A DNA stretch of 64,000 bases, taken from an archaeon. GTDB lineage: Archaea > Nanobdellota > Nanobdellia > Woesearchaeales > UBA9642. Position 1 is the stretch's first letter. Every line of letters begins with the position of its first letter. The notes beneath the pieces are model-generated. The model worked only from the letters and a program-made list of their open reading frames with translations. It was not told where the DNA came from and ran no database searches. Shown here piece after piece: positions 27,927 to 43,988 of the stretch. The stretch covers positions 21,877 through 85,876 of the forward strand of contig JAZDHK010000023.1 of the NCBI GenBank assembly GCA_043806035.1, in the 5' to 3' direction. Position numbers and translations under genes: made by a program.

Positions 27927-28461
27927 ACACCAGAAAAGCATGCTTGACCTTGCACGAAGAGCAATCATGGCCTATCCGAATAATGAACAGTTGAGGCTGC
28001 TCTATCAGGAACGGCACGATTTCGGCAGAGGTGGCGTGTTCGTGAGTGTCTACGTCGACAACGACTTGCGCGGATGCATCGGCAATCTCGAGCCTCTATC
28101 GTTGCAGGAAGGCATCATAGAAAACGCTATTCACGCAGCATACCACGACACAAGATTTTCACCCATAACAAAAAAAGAATTGCCCAGCATGAATGTGCAC
28201 ATCAATCTGCTCACCGAGCCAAAACCATACGCGTACAAGACGACGAAAGAGCTCCTGGAACGGATCAAGGGGGAAGGCGTCATCATCGAACGTAGAGGCA
28301 GGCGAGCGACCTTCCTGCCGAGTGTCTGGGAACAACTCCCTCTTTCTGAAGAATTCTTGAGTCATTTGTGCATGAAAGCAGGGCTGCCTGCACAGGATTG
28401 GAAGGAAAAAGGGTTGAGCGTCATGCTCTACCAGAGCGAGGAGTTCAGCGAACGTCCTTGA
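27904..28461 (+). CDS. amrA: AMMECR1 domain protein (AmmeMemoRadiSam system protein A)
   Basis: The LRGCIG signature is present. Confidence 0.85.
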   Translation: MPASHSREHQKSMLDLARRAIMAYPNNEQLRLLYQERHDFGRGGVFVSVYVDNDLRGCIGNLEPLSLQEGIIENAIHAAYHDTRFSPITKKELPSMNVHINLLTEPKPYAYKTTKELLERIKGEGVIIERRGRRATFLPSVWEQLPLSEEFLSHLCMKAGLPAQDWKEKGLSVMLYQSEEFSERP

Positions 28462-29137
28462 CTATTCGTTCCAACAAAGTTCGTCCTTGCTCGCCTAAGG
28501 GAATTTTCACTCGTCGCTCGTCATAGGGCACTTCTTGCTCTGTGAAAGGAAAGGTGAGCGGAATCTTCCATCGCTGCTGGTATTTCTTGTTCACATGCAT
28601 GCCTATCTGGAATGCCAGAAGATCTGCATAGTTGATGAGGGGAATGCTCTTGTCCCCGCCCGCATGCAGTTCGATGTTCTGCAGAGGAATCTTGAAGTTC
28701 AGGGCGTGCAAGTATTCTTTGATGAGCTGCTTGCTCACATATTCCTTGAGATAGAACATGTCGATGAACAGCACGGTCTTTTGTGAGTCATAGCCATTGA
28801 CGGTGACGAGATGTGCTATCGCTGCATGCTCGATGAGCTGTCTGCTGAACCTTCCTTCATTGGCACGCATCCAATGATACGTTTGCAATCCTTTCATCTC
28901 ATCGGGCCGAGGGAGCCGCGGAGCAGTCTCCAAAGAGCTGCCTGCACTCATGTGTGCATAAAATTCGGTAAGATGATCCCGCGCTTTTGGCAAGGCAGCA
29001 TATCCCTTGCTTTTTGTCAGTGTCTTGTCTTCAGTCACTGCAGCGACGACAGTGAGACTGTTCGTTCCGCTTCTGAGCGTGCTCTCATCTATGCCGATGT
29101 ACGTAAACGTCATGATTTCACGAGCTGGCTGAGGCAA
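28445..29137 (-). CDS. hypothetical protein (N-terminal IGIDES motif)
   Basis: The 230-aa ORF overlaps the upstream nuclease-like gene by 28 nt. Confidence 0.3.
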   Translation of the reverse strand: MPQPAREIMTFTYIGIDESTLRSGTNSLTVVAAVTEDKTLTKSKGYAALPKARDHLTEFYAHMSAGSSLETAPRLPRPDEMKGLQTYHWMRANEGRFSRQLIEHAAIAHLVTVNGYDSQKTVLFIDMFYLKEYVSKQLIKEYLHALNFKIPLQNIELHAGGDKSIPLINYADLLAFQIGMHVNKKYQQRWKIPLTFPFTEQEVPYDERRVKIPLGEQGRTLLERIVKDVR

Positions 29138-32446: not shown

Positions 32447-32534
32447 AGTCGAGAACGCACTTGTTTATTGATACTACTATTTAGTGGTTAAAATGGAAAG
32501 GTTTAAATAGTAGTAAATCTTACTACTTCTTACG

Positions 32535-32699
32535 ATGAAGATAAAAATGTCCATTTCAGTCGAGGAAAGCACGCTTGAGCAAGTAGAGCACATCGTGCAG
32601 AACAATCGATTCAGGAATAAGAGCCATTTCATCGAAATGGCAATCCAAACATATCTTAAGAAAGGGGGTGATGAACGTGTTCCGGAAAAAACAGACTGA
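32535..32699 (+). CDS. ribbon-helix-helix (CopG/Arc-like) DNA-binding protein
   Basis: The 54-aa product is MKIKMSISVEESTLEQVEHIVQNNRFRNKSHFIEMAIQTYLKK. It overlaps the start of the next ORF and falls below the ORF-track cutoff. Confidence 0.5.
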   Translation: MKIKMSISVEESTLEQVEHIVQNNRFRNKSHFIEMAIQTYLKKGGDERVPEKTD

Positions 32700-34245
32700 C
32701 TCGAAAAGACATGTTGAAACATCCCTGACCTTAGATTATCGATCGGCTGTGTGGGGTATTGAACGTATCGTCCTCGACACCATTGCAAATCATCTTCCTG
32801 CTGACAGCAAAGGCACAAAAGCCGCGGTGAAGATAAAACAGCAAGGAACCTATAGAGATATTTCTCAGTCAGATTTTTCTCAGCCAGCCGAGGAAGTCGT
32901 CTTTGAGGATGACGGCCAAGGCTATGACTCTGGTTTATTGACTGTGCTGCAGTCAACGAAAATGAATGAACTGTGTAGCGTTGGCCAGTTTGGAGAGGGA
33001 CTGAAAATGGTGGCAGCAGCTGCGCTCCGTAACAATCTCGACTTAGAATACCGTTCAAGAGATTGGTCTGCACGACCATTCATTAAAGAAGAAACTATCG
33101 CGGGAACAAGGGTCAAGCGGCTCTGTTTCTCTATTGATAAACGACCCGCCATGCAAGGATCACAGACCATCATACGCAAACCTTCCCCTGAATTGATGAC
33201 TGAACTCTCAGTGCTAGAAAGGAAGGCACTGCCTTTTGCAGAATATAAAACACTCTACACAGAGCCAAAAGGAGGAAAAACCTACCCTGCTCGCATTCTT
33301 GAGCTGGCAAAACCTGCTCTTTTCGTGAAAGGAATCCGCATACAAGATAGGCACAGTATTTTCAGTTATGATCTTGGCATCGAAGACATCACTCCAGATA
33401 GATATTTCACTAAAATGGATACCTTGCTTGATGAGATACAGCGTCTTCTGAACGCAACTGACAATCCTGAAGTGATAGAGCGTGTCTTGGCGAAAGCGGA
33501 AGATGAGCCATATGGGGGGTATGATGAATTCCGTGCATTTGAGAGTAGAGAACAAGAAAGGTCAGGTTATTTTTGTGGAATGTTTCTTGATACTATTGAC
33601 CCCATTGTGTTACTTAAATCAGTCGGGATGAAAAAAACGTTGTTCAATGCATTGAGTGCATACATCAAAGAACCAATACAGACTGAGTCTGTATGGAAGA
33701 GGTCATTCACTAAACTGTTCGGCGATAACGCAATCCTGGCATCTGATTGTGATGTGACCAACAAGGATGCTGTCGCATTAGGATATATTCCTGTCAAGTT
33801 GCACAGAGGCATTGCGCACAAGCTTATCAAAGAAGATGTCCAGAGCGCTGACCAGCTTGAGATCACGAAAGACTATAAGTGGATAAGCAAGGATGATCTG
33901 ACTCCTGAAGAGCGAACAATCTATGATTGTGCAAATGAAATTCAACAAGTTGTGCTTGAGCAACCGGTTCCTGTCGATCTTCGCGTGTATTCAGGCGTTT
34001 ACGCCAACACTGGCAGAGAACTCGAATCCAACACGGGCATCTATATGCCTGCAAAACCACGGGACATCATAGGCATTAAGCGCTCCCAGCTTACCGATCT
34101 CGTGAGTTTTGCAGATACGTATCTTCACGAACTCGGACACAAAGTGACTGGCGAGGGAGACTACAGTAGAAGACACACTGCTTTCTTCACCCGCGCTCTT
34201 GCAAAACTCGTTTCTGCTCAACTGGGCAAGCATGCCAATCTTTAA
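32668..34245 (+). CDS. GHKL (HSP90/MORC-type) ATPase domain protein with C-terminal HExxH (ImmA/IrrE-like HELGH) metallopeptidase motif
   Basis: The N-box LDTIANHLPAD, G1 box DDGQGYD and G2 box GQFGEGLK are present, followed by about 300 aa of unknown sequence and a C-terminal YLHELGHKV...RRH. Confidence 0.5.
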   Translation: MMNVFRKKQTDSKRHVETSLTLDYRSAVWGIERIVLDTIANHLPADSKGTKAAVKIKQQGTYRDISQSDFSQPAEEVVFEDDGQGYDSGLLTVLQSTKMNELCSVGQFGEGLKMVAAAALRNNLDLEYRSRDWSARPFIKEETIAGTRVKRLCFSIDKRPAMQGSQTIIRKPSPELMTELSVLERKALPFAEYKTLYTEPKGGKTYPARILELAKPALFVKGIRIQDRHSIFSYDLGIEDITPDRYFTKMDTLLDEIQRLLNATDNPEVIERVLAKAEDEPYGGYDEFRAFESREQERSGYFCGMFLDTIDPIVLLKSVGMKKTLFNALSAYIKEPIQTESVWKRSFTKLFGDNAILASDCDVTNKDAVALGYIPVKLHRGIAHKLIKEDVQSADQLEITKDYKWISKDDLTPEERTIYDCANEIQQVVLEQPVPVDLRVYSGVYANTGRELESNTGIYMPAKPRDIIGIKRSQLTDLVSFADTYLHELGHKVTGEGDYSRRHTAFFTRALAKLVSAQLGKHANL

Positions 34246-34269
34246 AAACTAGCAGATGTCTCTTCACAC

Positions 34270-36027
34270 ATGGTCGACGCAGCATGCTTTCGTAGCCCTA
34301 TCGTCTCTGTGCTTGGTCATGTTGATCATGGCAAGTCCAGTGTCCTTGATGCTATCCGCGGGACGAATATCGTCAAGACGGAAGCAGGACAAATCACGCA
34401 GGCGATAGGCGCAAGCATTATCCCGCTTGACGTCATCATGAAACGCTGCAGCAAGCTCCTCAAAGACAAGCCGTCCTTCTCCATTCCTGGATTGCTGTTC
34501 ATCGACACGCCAGGCCACGCGGCATTCATGGGCATGCGCAAGCGTGGAGGCAACCTTGCTGATATCGCCATTCTCATCGTCGACATCAATGAAGGGTTCA
34601 AGCCGCAGACGATTGAAAGCATAAAGATACTGCGTTCCCAGAAGACTCCCTTCGTCGTTGCCCTCAACAAGATGGACCTCATCGCCAATTATCGAAAGCA
34701 AGCAGACCTGCTCATGGATGATATTCAGCAGCAGCGAGCGGACGTACAGCAAACGCTGGACAATAAGCTCTACACGATCGTGGGACAGTTCTATGAACAG
34801 TTCGAGCTGCAAGCAGAACGGTATGATCGGTGTGATTTCACCAAACAAGTTGCCCTCGTCCCGTGCAGCGCAAAGCAGGACATAGGCATTGCAGAATTGC
34901 TCATGGTGCTTATAGGACTAACGCAGAAATACTTGCAAGAGTCTCTCGCCTTCTCCGCACAAGGCCCCGCCAAGGGCAGTGTCATGGAAGTCAAGGAATC
35001 CCCCGGATTGGGCACGTGCATGAACGTCATACTTTACGATGGCAGCCTCGCCGTCAACGACACCATTGTCATAGGCGGGATAGACAAGCCGACCGTGACA
35101 AAAGTCAGGGCATTGTTCGAGCCCTACCCGCTGCACGAGATGCGGGACAAGAAGAGCAAGTACAAGTCCGTCGAGCATGTCTGTGCAGCTACGGGCGTGC
35201 GCATTGCCGCCGCCCAGGATGTCGATGCCGTCATTGCGGGCATGCCCCTCATGAGCTGCGAAGACACGCCTGAAGCGATAGCTGAGGCAGAGCAGCAACT
35301 GCAAGAGACGTTCGAGGAACTGCCATTGGAGAAAGAGGGCATCATCATCAAGGCGGACACGCTCGGCAGCCTCGAAGCGCTCGCTGTCCTCTTGAAAGAA
35401 AATGCCATTCCCGTACGGGCAGCAACTATCGGTGCTGTTTCCAAAAAAGACATCGCTGACGCAGAATCAGAACAAGAACCAACGTTCAGGGTCATTCTCG
35501 GCTTCAATGTCAAGGACGAGTCAGGCCTGCAGAGCGTCAAGGTCATCACGAACGATGTCATCTACCGGCTTATCGATGATGTCGAGCAGTGGCAGCAGTC
35601 AGTCAAGGAGAAGGAAGAGGAACGTGCACTCGACTTGATGACCAGACCCTGCAAGCTGGAGGTGCTGCAGAACTGCATCTTCCGCCAGAGCAATCCTGCC
35701 GTCGTCGGTGTGGAGGTGCTCGTTGGCGTTCTGCAGAAAGGCATGCCACTTATGAAGAACGGCCAGCGTCTTTGCATCGTAAAGAGCATGCAGAAAGAAA
35801 AAGAGAATATAGACCGGGCGGAGAAGAAAGACCAAATTGCCATTTCTCTGCCGGACGTGGTGTGCGGCAGGCACCTCTTCGAAGGCGACGTTTTGTACAG
35901 TGACATTCCTGAAGAGCAATTCCGAGAACTCAAAAAATTCAAGAAACATCTAGCGAGAGATGAACTCGATCTTATGAAGGAGATTGCGGAATTTCATAGA
36001 AAAGACAATCCTGTCTGGGGGATATGA
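34270..36027 (+). CDS. infB: translation initiation factor aIF5B (IF2)
   Basis: The G domain VSVLGHVDHGKSS, DTPGH and NKMD are present, and the archaeal length is 585 aa. Confidence 0.95.
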   Translation: MVDAACFRSPIVSVLGHVDHGKSSVLDAIRGTNIVKTEAGQITQAIGASIIPLDVIMKRCSKLLKDKPSFSIPGLLFIDTPGHAAFMGMRKRGGNLADIAILIVDINEGFKPQTIESIKILRSQKTPFVVALNKMDLIANYRKQADLLMDDIQQQRADVQQTLDNKLYTIVGQFYEQFELQAERYDRCDFTKQVALVPCSAKQDIGIAELLMVLIGLTQKYLQESLAFSAQGPAKGSVMEVKESPGLGTCMNVILYDGSLAVNDTIVIGGIDKPTVTKVRALFEPYPLHEMRDKKSKYKSVEHVCAATGVRIAAAQDVDAVIAGMPLMSCEDTPEAIAEAEQQLQETFEELPLEKEGIIIKADTLGSLEALAVLLKENAIPVRAATIGAVSKKDIADAESEQEPTFRVILGFNVKDESGLQSVKVITNDVIYRLIDDVEQWQQSVKEKEEERALDLMTRPCKLEVLQNCIFRQSNPAVVGVEVLVGVLQKGMPLMKNGQRLCIVKSMQKEKENIDRAEKKDQIAISLPDVVCGRHLFEGDVLYSDIPEEQFRELKKFKKHLARDELDLMKEIAEFHRKDNPVWGI

Positions 36028-36485
36028 TGCTGGCACTCAAGCCAATGAACAGCAAAGATGTCAAGCACGTCAAGCAGCTGCTCAAAGAACAGTTCGGCAT
36101 AGCTGCACTTCCCGACGGCTTCTTTTTTATCAACAAGGAGCACAAGCTCTACTTTATCAACAGGGACGTTGACCGTGTTGATTTTGAGCAGCTCAGGATA
36201 GACACGCTTGGCATGTATTTTGGCGAGCTCGAGGAGGATGGCATCAGGCTCAGTATGGATGCCTGCCAGCTGCTCGGCCAAAACGCAAGCAAGAATGTTC
36301 TTTTACTTACTGCTGGGCAGCTTGAGCACTGGGTGAAAGGAGAGACGATGAACTGGGCATCAGACACAAGAGGATTCGTGCTTGTTCGTTATGGGAATGA
36401 TTTTCTCGGCTGTGGAAAGTTGGGCAAGGATAAACTCTACAATTATGTCTCAAAATCACGAAAGCTTAAAGTGCTCAATGCCTGA
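36024..36485 (+). CDS. NIP7/PUA-like RNA-binding protein (ribosome biogenesis)
   Basis: The product is 153 aa with a C-terminal PUA-like segment GFVLVRYGNDFLGCGK. It overlaps infB by 4 nt. Confidence 0.4.
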   Translation: MMLALKPMNSKDVKHVKQLLKEQFGIAALPDGFFFINKEHKLYFINRDVDRVDFEQLRIDTLGMYFGELEEDGIRLSMDACQLLGQNASKNVLLLTAGQLEHWVKGETMNWASDTRGFVLVRYGNDFLGCGKLGKDKLYNYVSKSRKLKVLNA

Positions 36486-37644
36486 AGAGCAATCCTTGTG
36501 CGTACTCTCTCAAGAACGGCGTGCTCATGGTGCCGAATGCTGCATCTCCTAATCGTTCTCCAAATGTATCGCCTTGCAGTTTGCTCTCATAGAACGTGTC
36601 TGCAAACTTGCCGTGCTGCTTGAGGATGTGTCCTTCCCTGAGCAGATGAAAGAGCTTCACCCGCTGCATGTTCATCCTGTCTCTGCTGACGAGATCTGCT
36701 TCGCGTGATTTTCTGATTATTTCATCGACGTCGCTTCTTGTTCTGTCTGCAAGCTGTTGCTGTATCAGGATGTTTTTCTGCTCGGTGAGGAATAGGTCAT
36801 GATAGTCTTTAGGGAATTTGAAAGGGTGCCCATAGGCGTGCGTGAACTCTTCCCTGGCAGCACGGCTGGCATGCATGCTCTCCTTGTATTCAGCAGGCGC
36901 ATGCAACAGGCCATAGATGTATTCCTGGAGACGTGCGGCGAACGAGCTGACGTAACAGGAGACGTTCGGTTCTTTCGTGAGCAGCGTATCTATCATGAGA
37001 AATCCATCCCGTACATTTTTTGTGTGGAAGGTGCCGCTCTTGTTCAGTGCCTGGTCCATGATGCGTATCTCGTTGAGAATCTGCTTGCCTCGCTTGATGC
37101 GTGCGCGCATGTAGTTGTTCGTCATGCCAAGTTTTGGATTGACGGCATTGATGGCGTCGGCGAGAGAAAAATAGTAGATTGACTTCCTTCTCGTATAGTA
37201 TGCTTTGGTGAGTGCCTCTTCGCCGTCTTCGTATTCGAGAATTTTGTTGGATATGCTCCGTACTGCTCTGGCGAAGAACGGGATGCTGATGCGATGCTCG
37301 GAAGGAATAGCCAAGGATTTGAGCGATTTGCCGATGCGTTCTTTCGTCTGTGGCGTTCCTTCGATGAATGCCTCAGCGTTCTGCATAAGCTCTGGTGAGA
37401 GAGGGAATTGTTGGACATCCTGGATGTACCGTGCAGTAAATACTGCTGCCGCATCAGGATCGGTGTCGATGAGCTCCCCGTATCGTGATAGGAAGATGTT
37501 TCTTTGCAGCGACGGAGATACTGATTGTATGCTGTCGATAAGAGGGGTGATACGCGCATCGAGTTGTGCGCGCTGCTCATCCGTGTAGAGCATGTCCTCT
37601 ATCCGTCGTGGTTGCACCATATCTTTCATGCGTGTTCGAAGCAT
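36475..37644 (-). CDS. hypothetical protein
   Basis: The product is 389 aa with no clear motif. Confidence 0.3.
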   Translation of the reverse strand: MLRTRMKDMVQPRRIEDMLYTDEQRAQLDARITPLIDSIQSVSPSLQRNIFLSRYGELIDTDPDAAAVFTARYIQDVQQFPLSPELMQNAEAFIEGTPQTKERIGKSLKSLAIPSEHRISIPFFARAVRSISNKILEYEDGEEALTKAYYTRRKSIYYFSLADAINAVNPKLGMTNNYMRARIKRGKQILNEIRIMDQALNKSGTFHTKNVRDGFLMIDTLLTKEPNVSCYVSSFAARLQEYIYGLLHAPAEYKESMHASRAAREEFTHAYGHPFKFPKDYHDLFLTEQKNILIQQQLADRTRSDVDEIIRKSREADLVSRDRMNMQRVKLFHLLREGHILKQHGKFADTFYESKLQGDTFGERLGDAAFGTMSTPFLREYAQGLLFRH

Positions 37645-42785: not shown

Positions 42786-43145
42786 GCATCGCGTTTGGCA
42801 CGGCATCATATAAAAACTTAACGACTCGCTTTTGCAAACGACGTTATTTTCCCGTCGAGAAATCGGCAAAAAAATGTGGCGAGCAGTACCTGTGCAAAAG
42901 AATGGTATGCTGTTCCAGCATCACTCTTCATCCAATTCGTCCAACGTCCAATAATCTTTTACCATATCGCACCAGCGCAGAGGTGTGCAGGCATATTGCC
43001 TTGCCAACACGATATGTAAAGTGTTGTATTGAGTTTATTTTTAATTGCTTTAAAAACACAACACTTTGATAAATAATGCGTGTTTTTTCGTGCGTGGCGG
43101 CAGTGCATGCACAAGTTATTTATATGCCTGCTCGTTCTTGTGCGC

Positions 43146-43988
43146 ATGCTCGATACGAAGCTCATGAAGAAGATCTCTGATTTCGTCTACGTGAAACCGA
43201 GGACGGTGCAGGAAGTGGCGCACCTCATCAACAAGAACTGGCGGACGGCAGACAGCTACCTTGCCAAGATCGCAGCAGAGGAAGGAACGATAGGTATGCG
43301 CACGTTCAGAGGAGGCACGAGAGGTGCATTGAAGATCGTGTTCTGGAATAATATAGAGAAAGTGCATAGTTACGCATTCCAGGAGCGGCTCATGCAGCGC
43401 ATCCAGACCTCGAGCACGAAAACGGACTTTAGCCCGTTTGACATCTACCAGTACGTTGATCCTAAGAAACGGCACGCGTTCATCGAGGCACAGGCTGATG
43501 ACGCAAAATCGGTGCAGCAAGACCTTGCGTCGGAGTTGCGTAAGGCACGGCATCAGGTATTACTTTTTTCTGGAAATCTCTCCTGGGCGAATCTGTCCAT
43601 GCGAAACAAGCAGATGATCGACGTGTTCGGGGAGCTCGCCAAAGCAAAAATATCCATCAAGATACTGTGTAGGGTGGATATTGCCAGCAAGAAGAATGTG
43701 GAGAAATTCCTTGCCATCAACGAGCAGGTGGGATTTGATGCGGTGGAGATCAGGCATGCCGAACAGCCGCTGCGTGCATTCATTATCGACAAAAACATGG
43801 TGCGGTTCAAGGAAATAAAGAACGTCCACGATTATGAATTGCGCAAGACGAAGCGAAACTACATCTTCTATGATTTGCTTGACGTGGAATGGGTGGAATG
43901 GACGCAAAACGTGTTCTGGAACATCTTCCGCGTCGCCATCCCTGCACGAAAACGCATCGAGGACATGGAGAGTATCCAGCAGCTCTGA
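43146..43988 (+). CDS. winged-HTH domain protein with uncharacterised C-terminal domain
   Basis: The N-terminus MLDTKLMKKISDFVYVKPRTVQEVAHLI is HTH-like. The start is uncertain; the ORF opens at a GTG at 43080. Confidence 0.35.
   Translation: MLDTKLMKKISDFVYVKPRTVQEVAHLINKNWRTADSYLAKIAAEEGTIGMRTFRGGTRGALKIVFWNNIEKVHSYAFQERLMQRIQTSSTKTDFSPFDIYQYVDPKKRHAFIEAQADDAKSVQQDLASELRKARHQVLLFSGNLSWANLSMRNKQMIDVFGELAKAKISIKILCRVDIASKKNVEKFLAINEQVGFDAVEIRHAEQPLRAFIIDKNMVRFKEIKNVHDYELRKTKRNYIFYDLLDVEWVEWTQNVFWNIFRVAIPARKRIEDMESIQQL

What the first reader, a model, noticed from the sequence alone, without database searches (positions are those of the whole stretch)
32535..34245. Two-gene island between trm1 and infB: an RHH protein plus a large GHKL-ATPase fused to an HELGH metallopeptidase motif
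A 54-aa ribbon-helix-helix ORF is unannotated in the ORF track because it falls below the cutoff. It overlaps the start of a 525-aa protein with clear Bergerat-fold boxes (NHLPAD, DDGQGYD, GQFGEGLK; HSP90/MORC-like). That protein ends in YLHELGHKV...RRH, an ImmA/IrrE-type zinc-peptidase motif. A pairing of ATPase sensor, protease effector and small DNA-binding regulator is the kind of architecture seen in conflict and abortive-infection modules. I do not recognise this exact fusion as a described system. The island also has somewhat lower GC than its surroundings.
Basis: partly seen in the sequence, partly recalled or inferred. Interest (0 to 1): 0.7.

Follow-up and report, generated by a model that had tools for sequence, protein, structure and literature searches.

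The report
RHH-controlled GHKL ATPase–zinc protease cassette
A small, self-regulated two-gene cassette in a DPANN archaeon encodes a DNA-binding repressor and an undescribed enzyme that joins a MORC/topoisomerase-type ATPase to a small Wss1/SprT-like zinc protease; relatives occur in other tiny archaea and bacteria, on plasmids and in large phages, so it is probably a new mobile conflict or defence module.

Summary
A 54-aa ribbon-helix-helix (RHH) gene (32535-32699) overlaps a 525-aa gene (32668-34245) with intact GHKL ATPase motifs and a C-terminal HELGH.

No Pfam, NCBIfam, PADLOC or PDB sequence search names the large protein. A confident AlphaFold model (pLDDT 89) shows three parts:
- **Middle:** a helical domain with no structural match.

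All motifs, including HExxH-x6-D, are conserved across a large unnamed family (283 cluster representatives at E<=1e-30).

The RHH gene accompanies the large gene in 20 of 39 related loci. Its promoter, with operator-like palindromes around the TATA box, is conserved across 12 loci.

The cassette sits between different housekeeping genes in each genome and has low GC3, so it looks mobile. Distant relatives lie in a type I restriction-modification operon on a plasmid and in large phages.

Best reading: an autoregulated, ATP-gated protease module used in genetic conflict. It is built like GHKL-nuclease Shedu (paraMORC3) with the nuclease replaced by a protease. Function is inferred, not shown.

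The parts
32472..32487 (.). Distal operator-like palindrome (TACTACTATTTAGTGG). Its first 12 nt form a perfect inverted repeat with 32504-32515.
   Evidence: Inverted repeat I5. The box 'TTACT-N5-AGTAGTTAC' is conserved at the same position in 12 loci (alignment A2).
32495..32509 (+). Archaeal core promoter: a purine-rich BRE-like GGAAAGG followed by the TATA box TTTAAATA (32502-32509). It lies about 29 nt upstream of the RHH ATG, which implies a leaderless or nearly leaderless transcript.
   Evidence: Sequence. 'GAAAGrTTTAwA' is nearly invariant in A2. The position of the transcription start is inferred from known archaeal promoter geometry.
32510..32526 (.). Proximal operator palindrome GTAGTAA-ATC-TTACTAC, between the TATA box and the start codon. 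Candidate RHH binding site for autorepression.
   Evidence: It is the only match in the 64-kb window, even allowing 2 mismatches, against 0.02 expected by chance. It is conserved in A2.
32535..32699 (+). RHH (CopG-type) gene, 54 aa. It has only the minimal DNA-binding fold and no C-terminal extension.
   Evidence: Pfam RHH_1, E=2.6e-5. Orthologues lie upstream of the large gene in 20 of 39 related loci, with HMM E-values of 1e-18 to 1e-28.
32664..32672 (+). Shine-Dalgarno-like GGGGGTGAT inside the end of the RHH gene. It precedes the candidate starts of the large gene (GTG 32668, ATG 32671, GTG 32677) and suggests translational coupling.
   Evidence: Sequence. The NCBI 522-aa call (P0001) fits a start at 32677. 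Coupling is an inference.
32668..34245 (+). GHKL ATPase-zincin gene, 525 aa (522 aa if it starts at 32677).
   Evidence: ORF. 83 close homologues. AF2 model with pLDDT 89.1 and pTM 0.83.
32695..33237 (+). GHKL (Bergerat-fold) ATPase domain, about aa 10-190. Motif I is D37-x3-N41 (32788-32805), motif II D81-x-G-x-G85 (32908-32922), motif III G106-QFGEGLK113 (32983-33006) and motif IV G164-S-x-T167. A disordered lid spans aa 99-107.
33238..33402 (+). Second, beta-rich domain, about aa 191-245. It carries the near-invariant K221-G, F232-S-Y and P243-D-R motifs and is a candidate transducer (S5-like) domain.
33403..33867 (+). Family-specific helical middle domain, about aa 246-400. It contains a variable, low-confidence insert at aa ~295-340.
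33868..34242 (+). C-terminal minimal zincin domain, about aa 401-525. H487-E-L-G-H491 is at 34126-34140 and the candidate third zinc ligand D498 at 34159-34161.

Best explanation
The locus is a self-contained, horizontally mobile two-gene cassette.

**Gene 1** encodes a minimal RHH repressor. It probably binds the conserved palindromes on either side of the TATA box and so autoregulates a leaderless, two-gene transcript.

**Gene 2** is translationally coupled to gene 1 and encodes a cytoplasmic enzyme with four parts:
- a GHKL ATPase head;
- a second, transducer-like domain of the kind found in MORC, MutL, type II topoisomerases and Hsp90;
- a family-specific helical middle domain;
- a C-terminal minimal zincin protease (HExxH-x6-D) with a Wss1/SprT/minigluzincin-like fold.

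**Proposed mechanism.** As in other two-domain GHKL enzymes, ATP binding would make two heads dimerise into a clamp. That conformational cycle would gate the protease or position it on a substrate held by the middle domains. The substrate is most probably a DNA-bound or invader-derived protein.

**Proposed role.** The cassette serves in genetic conflict, as defence, anti-defence or addiction. The logic is the same as in the GHKL-nuclease Shedu type I-D (paraMORC3) proteins, with proteolysis replacing DNA cleavage.

**Shown:** the domain architecture, motif conservation, the RHH linkage, the conserved promoter and operator, and the scattered genomic positions.

**Inferred:** ATPase activity, dimerisation, protease activity, the substrate, repression by the RHH, and the biological role.
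For: **Architecture**
- The full-length AF2 model has pLDDT 89.1.
- Catalytic-type residues are conserved family-wide.

**Dimerisation**
- Among 199 retrieved relatives, about 100 are GHKL-middle-zincin and about 50 are [GHKL-middle]x2-zincin.
- One genome carries two single-module paralogues in tandem behind one RHH gene.
- This is what is expected if two heads must pair.

**Regulation**
- The RHH gene lies upstream in 20 of 39 loci.
- The promoter and its palindromes are conserved in 12 loci whose proteins are only 40-45% identical.
- The proximal palindrome is unique in the window.

**Mobility and conflict**
- Flanking genes differ in every genome: trm1/aIF5B, PCNA/NUDIX, MutS/ribosomal proteins, ELP3, RNase H/Bro-N.
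- GC3 is 0.43 against 0.54-0.65 in the neighbours.
- Two paralogues come from one MAG, judged by NCBI locus-tag prefixes (P0056, P0059).
- A Salinibacter plasmid relative with the same architecture sits between hsdS and hsdR of a type I R-M operon that also encodes a YgjP/WLM-type protease.
- About 20 large viral contigs and Moorella phage MTATph1 encode 430-480-aa versions.

**Functional analogue**
- VcSduA has a GHKL head, a clamp-like middle domain and a nuclease. It needs both its ATPase and its nuclease residues for phage defence (PMC12137116).
Against: - There is no functional evidence of any kind.
- PADLOC gives no hit.
- The window shows no defence island: all neighbours are housekeeping. 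No integrase, tRNA or flanking repeat marks an insertion.
- The general-base position of GHKL motif I is Asp, not Glu, in 212 of 218 family modules. ATP hydrolysis may therefore be slow or absent.
- The third zinc ligand differs from Wss1 and SprT.
- The R-M and phage contexts come from relatives with only 22-33% identity, and those lack the RHH gene.
- The model coordinates could not be inspected, so the clamp geometry and the role of K221 are untested.
Confidence: 0.5

Rival explanations
1. **Housekeeping or stress DNA-protein-crosslink protease.** The GHKL clamp loads on DNA as MORC or MutL do, and the Wss1/SprT-like zincin degrades proteins trapped on DNA. The RHH keeps expression low until it is needed.
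For: - The top zincin matches include Wss1 and Spartan, which established literature describes as DNA-dependent crosslink proteases.
- The top GHKL matches are DNA enzymes: ParE, Topo II, MORC and MutL.
- The Moorella phage copy lies among helicase, dUTPase and SSB genes.
- Several DPANN copies neighbour PCNA, MutS or an RNase H-like gene.
Against: - Distribution is patchy: 33 loci in 185,579 species genomes, by a pattern-limited scan. A core repair function would be more widespread.
- Positions are non-syntenic, paralogues occur, and GC3 is low.
- No recognisable DNA-binding domain was found in the middle region.
- The third zinc ligand and sequence profiles do not match WLM or SprT.
- Minigluzincins and YbeY match equally well.
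Confidence: 0.2
2. **Signal-responsive derepression switch.** This works like ImmA/ImmR, IrrE/DdrO, CapP/CapH or BlaR1/BlaI. On a signal sensed by the ATPase, the zincin cleaves its own RHH repressor and derepresses the operon, and possibly other targets.
For: - A protease gene is strictly coupled to a small repressor gene behind an autoregulated promoter.
Against: - The only operator copy in 64 kb is the cassette's own. The switch would therefore control nothing but itself.
- Bacterial, plasmid and phage relatives keep the ATPase-protease and have no RHH gene, so the repressor cannot be the universal substrate.
Confidence: 0.12
3. **Type II toxin-antitoxin-like addiction module.** The GHKL-zincin is a toxin and the RHH protein neutralises it.
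For: - The gene order is TA-like: a small RHH gene first, overlapping the larger gene, behind an autoregulated palindromic promoter.
- Genomic positions are scattered.
Against: - The RHH protein is only 44-54 aa in all loci. That is the bare DNA-binding fold with no toxin-binding tail.
- In three loci another gene separates the pair.
- Many relatives lack the RHH gene altogether.
Confidence: 0.1
4. **Hsp90-like chaperone-protease for protein quality control.** Small-genome organisms that lack HtpG would use it for this.
For: - The G2 box GQFGEGLK resembles the one in Hsp90 and MORC.
- Hosts are mostly reduced-genome lineages.
Against: - Sporadic occurrence, paralogy, and phage, plasmid and R-M contexts do not fit a proteostasis core function.
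- The Hsp90 middle and C-terminal domains are not matched.
Confidence: 0.08

Closest known systems
Shedu type I-D / paraMORC3 (e.g. Vibrio cholerae VcSduA)
   Same: A single polypeptide with an N-terminal GHKL ATPase, a clamp-like middle region and a C-terminal effector. It is predicted to act as a dimer, and its defence activity needs both the ATPase and the effector (PMC12137116). Occurrence is sporadic and mobile.
   Different: The effector here is a zincin protease, not the DUF4263 PD-(D/E)xK nuclease that defines Shedu. No PADLOC model matches. Motif I has Asp instead of Glu. The DPANN form has a dedicated RHH regulator.
Prokaryotic MORC/paraMORC GHKL+S5 ATPases of restriction-modification loci (Iyer, Abhiman & Aravind 2008, PMC2292703)
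   Different: That paper mentions no peptidase fusion. Pfam HATPase_c_3 hits are sub-threshold for the query (E=0.25) and for most relatives. The DPANN copies are not next to R-M genes.
Wss1/WLM and SprT/Spartan DNA-dependent metalloproteases
   Different: No WLM or SprT-like profile hit. The candidate third ligand is Asp seven residues after the second His, rather than a His. No ubiquitin, SUMO or zinc-ribbon DNA-binding accessory domains are present.
Archaeal minigluzincins (proabylysin, projannalysin, selecase)
   Different: Those are stand-alone ~105-110-aa proteins. Here the scaffold is the C-terminal domain of a 525-aa ATPase. Sequence identity is 10-13%.
ImmA/IrrE (M78) protease with cognate repressor; CapP/CapH
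   Same: A zinc protease gene paired with a small DNA-binding repressor gene.
Phage rIIA proteins and phrog_6077
   Same: An N-terminal GHKL of the same structural class: BFVD E-values of 1e-4 to 1e-6 for rIIA proteins and phrog_6077 E=3e-9. Phage proteins of 372-437 aa match the whole model (best E=7e-23).
   Different: rIIA proteins are 650-850 aa with different C-terminal regions. phrog_6077 has no known function.

Membership tests
RHH_1 / CopG-type ribbon-helix-helix regulators | Profile match above the curated threshold over the beta-alpha-alpha fold | tested here: met
   PF01402, 24.4 bits against a cut-off of 20.5, covering residues 6-43. 20 orthologues were recovered by HMM.
RHH_1 / CopG-type ribbon-helix-helix regulators | Binds repeated or palindromic operator DNA | not testable with these tools
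   Candidate operators are conserved in 12 loci and unique in the window. Binding itself needs EMSA or footprinting.
GHKL (Bergerat-fold) ATPase superfamily | Motifs I (E-x3-N), II (D-x-G-x-G), III (G-x-x-G-x-G) and IV (Thr) | tested here: met
   N41, D81-x-G83-x-G85, G106-x-x-G109-x-G111 and G164-S-x-T167 are all at least 93% conserved. One deviation: the motif-I acid is Asp37 (41/42; 212 of 218 family modules).
GHKL (Bergerat-fold) ATPase superfamily | Bergerat fold | tested here: met
GHKL (Bergerat-fold) ATPase superfamily | ATP binding and hydrolysis | not testable with these tools
   Needs biochemistry. The Asp-for-Glu change makes hydrolysis uncertain.
MORC/paraMORC (GHKL + S5 transducer) | S5-fold second domain supplying a conserved Lys to the ATP site | tested here: inconclusive
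MORC/paraMORC (GHKL + S5 transducer) | HATPase_c_3 profile membership | tested here: not met
   The query scores E=0.25 and 11.8 bits against a cut-off of 25. Only 14 of 43 relatives give any hit.
Shedu (incl. type I-D / paraMORC3) | DUF4263 PD-(D/E)xK nuclease domain | tested here: not met
   No such Pfam or PADLOC hit. The C-terminal domain is a zincin.
ImmA/IrrE (peptidase M78) | M78/COG2856 fold and profile | tested here: not met
WLM/Wss1 and SprT families | Zincin fold of the WLM/SprT type | tested here: met
WLM/Wss1 and SprT families | Family profile match and HExxH plus a downstream His as third ligand | tested here: not met
   No WLM or SprT-like hit in 43 members. The conserved downstream residue is D498, giving HExxH-x6-D. 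The His-ligand rule is from my own knowledge.
WLM/Wss1 and SprT families | DNA-dependent proteolysis | not testable with these tools
   Needs biochemistry.
Type II toxin-antitoxin (RHH antitoxin) | Antitoxin has a toxin-binding extension beyond the RHH fold | tested here: not met
   The RHH proteins are 44-54 aa in all loci. The Pfam match covers residues 6-43 of 54.

The most novel reading that the evidence does not exclude
This is the founding example of an undescribed class of ATP-gated clamp proteases. A MORC/topoisomerase-like GHKL dimer captures DNA-bound proteins, such as invader replication or restriction proteins or crosslinked proteins, and a tethered Wss1-like zincin destroys them. 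Ultra-small symbionts (DPANN archaea, CPR bacteria, Omnitrophota), plasmids and jumbo phages would all use it as a weapon or counter-weapon. In DPANN archaea a dedicated RHH autorepressor controls it.
Probability: 0.25. Interest if true: 0.8.

Novelty: new variant of a known kind. Interest (0 to 1): 0.62.

Why it matters
- **DPANN immunity.** Defence and conflict systems of DPANN archaea and CPR bacteria are largely uncharted. This would be one of the few candidate modules specific to them.
- **A new effector type.** GHKL ATPases are known to gate nucleases (Shedu I-D), topoisomerase gates, mismatch-repair endonucleases and chaperone cycles. A GHKL-gated protease would add a new effector type to that list.
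- **A testable link.** It would offer a prokaryotic model connecting MORC-type clamps with Wss1/Spartan-type proteases.
- **A large unnamed family.** There are 283 cluster representatives at E<=1e-30 and 2,971 at E<=1e-3. It has no Pfam, NCBIfam or PADLOC model for its protease half, so it is currently annotated only as 'hypothetical' or 'ATP-binding protein'.
- **A ready-made assay.** The conserved promoter-operator gives an easy entry point for studying RHH-mediated regulation of leaderless archaeal transcripts.

Tried and rejected
- **Sequence searches that found nothing useful.**
  - The 525-aa protein gave no family at the thresholds used in Pfam, NCBIfam or PADLOC.
  - A sequence search of the PDB found nothing.
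  - A profile search of the PDB gave one spurious hit at E=1.4.
- **Peptidase family by profile.** Scanning all 43 aligned members against Pfam at E<=1 gave no recurring peptidase family. There was a single MPTase-PolyVal hit at E=0.29.
- **AlphaFold DB fold search.** The library was unavailable.
- **Insertion scars.** No tRNA in the window. No convincing flanking direct repeats; the only candidate is a 13-nt, 85% pair lying inside the two neighbouring coding regions.
- **Further operator copies.** None found: the first pattern, with N4 spacing, was wrong, and the correct N3 spacing matches only the cassette's own promoter.
- **Defence-island hypothesis for this window.** Rejected, because the neighbours are TFB, a rhomboid protease, radical SAM, Memo, an OMP-decarboxylase-like gene, Trm1, aIF5B, a PUA protein, a HAD hydrolase and a topoisomerase.
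- **Literature searches.**
  - Searches for GHKL with metallopeptidase or HExxH, and for GHKL, SprT, Wss1 and MORC together, found no description of this fusion.
  - Neither did searches for paraMORC, MPN635, or YgjP with R-M.
- **Antisense ORF.** The 200-aa ORF at 32477-33079 (-) lies inside the conserved gene and was dismissed as spurious.
Full report
**1. The observation**

The RHH ORF is 32535-32699 (+), 54 aa. The large ORF is 32668-34245 (+), 525 aa from a GTG.

An identical protein in the public collection is called at 522 aa ('MAG: archaeon', P0001). That fits a start at the GTG at 32677, just after a Shine-Dalgarno-like GGGGGTGAT at 32664-32672. The genes overlap by 23-32 nt, which suggests translational coupling; this is an inference.

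The small ORF passes Pfam's RHH_1 threshold (E=2.6e-5). All quoted motifs are present in the translation.

The composition claim also holds. The island's GC is 0.449 against 0.490 +/- 0.022 for equal-sized windows, placing it in the lowest 6%. GC3 is 0.43 for the large gene against 0.54-0.65 for five neighbouring genes.

**2. What the large protein is**

*Sequence libraries.* Pfam, NCBIfam, PADLOC and PDB sequence and profile searches give nothing usable for the query.

*Close homologues.* A search found 83 homologues at 25-48% identity. Almost all come from DPANN archaea (Woese-, Pace-, Nano- and Micrarchaeota), and the few that carry a name are annotated 'hypothetical protein'.

*Wider family.* An exhaustive profile search of 1.84 billion cluster representatives found 2,971 proteins at E<=1e-3 and 283 at E<=1e-30.

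*Conservation in 43 aligned sequences.*
- GHKL motifs: D37-x3-N41-H, D81-x-G83-x-G85, G106-x-x-G109-E-G111-x-K113 and G164-S-x-T167 are conserved in 39 to 42 of 42 sequences.
- Second-domain motifs: K221-G, F232-S-Y and P243-D-R.
- Zincin signature: H487 38/40, E488 40/40, H491 39/39, D498 38/40.

*C-terminal half alone.* A second model of residues 246-525 (pLDDT 84.5) searched separately gives Wss1 9.9, projannalysin 9.0, S. pombe Wss1 8.7, proabylysin 8.6, YbeY 8.5, Spartan 8.5 and selecase 8.0. ArdC scores 5.7. The ImmA/IrrE-type proteases PprI and CapP score only 4.8, at ranks 59-60. The helical middle domain (about aa 246-400) matches nothing on its own.

*Weak profile support.* HATPase_c is hit by 32 of 43 relatives and HATPase_c_3 by 14 of 43. 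No peptidase family recurs.

*Conclusion on architecture.* The protein is GHKL + transducer-like domain + novel helical domain + minimal zincin. The HExxH-x6-D signature resembles the Asp-zincin HExxHxxGxxD motif (quoted in PMC3890501) with one extra residue.

One caveat applies. The motif-I acid is Asp rather than the canonical Glu in 212 of 218 family modules, so ATP hydrolysis may be slow.

**3. Family architectures**

Domain HMMs built from the alignment classify 199 retrieved relatives:
- about 100 are N-M-C (GHKL/transducer, middle, zincin);
- about 50 are N-M-N-M-C, about 1,000 aa long, mostly from CPR bacteria, Omnitrophota and Micrarchaeota.

HExxH is intact in 158 of 175 zincin domains.

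The duplicated heads with a single protease fit the rule that GHKL heads act in pairs. So does one contig with two single-module paralogues in tandem behind one RHH gene. This is an inference drawn from MutL, MORC, Topo II and Hsp90.

**4. The RHH gene and its promoter**

An HMM of the small ORF finds an orthologue upstream of the large gene in 20 of 39 related loci. In three of these another gene sits between the two: a methyltransferase, or a 230-aa HELSH protein. One case is a two-module protein. Bacterial, plasmid and viral relatives have no RHH gene. The RHH proteins are only 44-54 aa, which is the bare fold.

In the stand-alone cassettes the upstream ~70 nt are conserved (70% mean column identity over 12 loci), even though the proteins are only 40-45% identical. 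The layout is:
- a distal 'TTACT-N5-AGTAGTTAC' box;
- 'GAAAGrTTTAwA' (BRE and TATA);
- 'GTAGyAA-N3/4-TTACTACTT', ending a few bases before the ATG.

In the window these are 32472-32487, 32495-32509 and 32510-32526. A perfect 12-nt inverted repeat links 32472-32483 with 32504-32515. The proximal palindrome is the only match in 64 kb, against 0.02 expected by chance.

The TATA box lies about 29 nt before the ATG, which implies a leaderless transcript. A repressor bound to the palindromes would block TBP, TFB and RNA polymerase. Autorepression is thus well motivated but not shown.

**5. Genomic behaviour**

*In the window.* The cassette lies between trm1 (divergent, 88 nt away from trm1's longest possible start codon) and aIF5B (24 nt away). 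All genes within +/-10 kb are housekeeping. There is no tRNA, integrase or flanking repeat.

*In other DPANN genomes.* The same cassette lies in unrelated places:
- between PCNA and NUDIX;
- between MutS and an RNA polymerase/ribosomal-protein cluster;
- between small unknown genes and RNase H/Bro-N;
- after ELP3;
- near ribosomal protein genes, with an HNH endonuclease, a DNA methylase and a transposase nearby;
- inside a long operon with a Ser/Thr kinase and radical SAM genes.

*Paralogues and prevalence.* Two paralogues come from one MAG, judged by NCBI locus-tag prefixes (P0056, P0059). A pattern-limited scan found only 33 loci among 185,579 species genomes.

Non-synteny, patchiness, paralogy and deviant GC3 together indicate an accessory, horizontally moving cassette rather than a core gene.

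**6. Distant relatives in conflict contexts**

*Plasmids.* A translated search found a 480-aa 'ATP-binding protein' on Salinibacter ruber plasmid pSR56. It has the same layout:
- a canonical REIIANALDE motif I, a GKFGVGLK box and an FSYN motif;
- a C-terminal LHELAH...D, 33% identical over 120 residues (E=3e-14);
- HATPase_c hits.

It sits between hsdS and hsdR of a type I R-M operon, which is followed by a YgjP/WLM-type metalloprotease gene. Two Bacillales plasmid relatives lie in recombinase- and intron-rich regions.

*Phages.* Moorella phage MTATph1 (177 kb) encodes a 446-aa full-length relative with 22.8% identity over 97% of the query. It lies among helicase, dUTPase and SSB genes. About 20 IMG/VR contigs, many 60-410 kb long, encode 430-480-aa proteins with the same GHKL...HExxH layout.

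*Phage families.* phrog_6077 (unknown function) matches at E=3e-9. In BFVD, uncharacterised phage proteins match the whole model (best E=7e-23), followed by many rIIA-type GHKL proteins.

**7. Mechanism and comparison**

The closest experimentally studied analogue is VcSduA (Shedu type I-D, formerly paraMORC3). It has a GHKL head, a clamp-like middle domain and a C-terminal nuclease. Both the ATPase and the nuclease residues are needed for phage defence (PMC12137116).

The present family has the same layout with a protease effector. It is not a Shedu member, because it lacks DUF4263.

My best-supported explanation has these steps:
- an autorepressed cassette;
- ATP-dependent pairing of the GHKL heads;
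- that cycle gates a tethered zincin on a captured, probably DNA-associated or invader protein;
- the module serves in genetic conflict.

I rate the architecture at about 0.9 and the conflict role at about 0.5.

The rivals are set out with their tests in the rival-explanations section:
- a Wss1/Spartan-like DNA-protein-crosslink protease;
- a repressor-cleaving switch;
- a toxin-antitoxin pair;
- an Hsp90-like chaperone-protease.

**8. Novelty**

No searched paper describes a GHKL-zincin fusion. No curated profile covers the protease half. I classify the family as a new variant of a known kind, namely GHKL-ATPase-gated effector proteins of the paraMORC/Shedu type, with an unusual host range and a dedicated RHH regulator in DPANN archaea.

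Its interpretation is partly supported: the conflict-module idea remains plausible, but the ImmA/IrrE label and the defence-island expectation are not supported.

Noticed in passing
window 34241-34248 (and aIF5B start at 34270): A TATA-like TTTAAAAA overlaps the stop codon of the GHKL-zincin gene, 22-29 nt before the aIF5B ATG. The promoter of this essential gene therefore seems to lie in the cassette's last codons, and aIF5B also looks leaderless.
   Followed up: partly
L071 6226-9781 (= L011; JAHFQW010000015.1): Two single-module GHKL-zincin paralogues (590 and 596 aa) lie in tandem behind one RHH gene. This is a possible heterodimer counterpart of the fused two-module proteins.
   Followed up: partly
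L001 2967-13623 and L036 3360-11207: A second RHH subtype (MKSKISITVD...) and its GHKL-zincin are embedded in a long operon of overlapping genes. The other genes are unknown small proteins, a 988-aa unknown, a methyltransferase, DUF1284, radical SAM and a Ser/Thr protein kinase.
   Followed up: partly
L015 5288-5980; L019 4868-5695: A gene is inserted between the RHH and GHKL-zincin genes. In L015 it is a 230-aa protein with its own HELSH motif and no Pfam hit. In L019 and L001 it is a SAM methyltransferase.
   Followed up: partly
L038 7001-9391, L039 7001-9244 (P0073, P0081; also P0055, P0056): Two-module relatives carry weak or faint precomputed hits to PF25856 'MPN635_N', a Mycoplasma pneumoniae protein domain. 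This hints that Mollicutes may have related proteins. The single paper that mentions MPN635 was listed but not read.
   Followed up: partly
L031, L032 (whole loci); P0152: In Omnitrophota the N-M-N-M-C unit lies inside giant ORFs. These run for more than 4,400 codons across the whole fetched locus, and one representative is 6,439 aa. Several of these copies lack a strict HExxH.
   Followed up: no
L065 1902-11626 (Salinibacter ruber M8 plasmid pSR56): A type I R-M operon has the order hsdM, hsdS, GHKL-zincin, hsdR, YgjP/WLM-type metalloprotease, second methyltransferase. That gives two different zincins in one restriction operon.
   Followed up: partly
window 36475-37644 (-), 28445-29137 (-), 43080-43988 (+): Three sizeable ORFs (389, 230 and 302 aa) near the cassette have no Pfam match.
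   Followed up: no
window 32477-33079 (-): A 200-aa antisense ORF lies entirely within the RHH and GHKL-zincin coding region. It is almost certainly spurious.
   Followed up: yes
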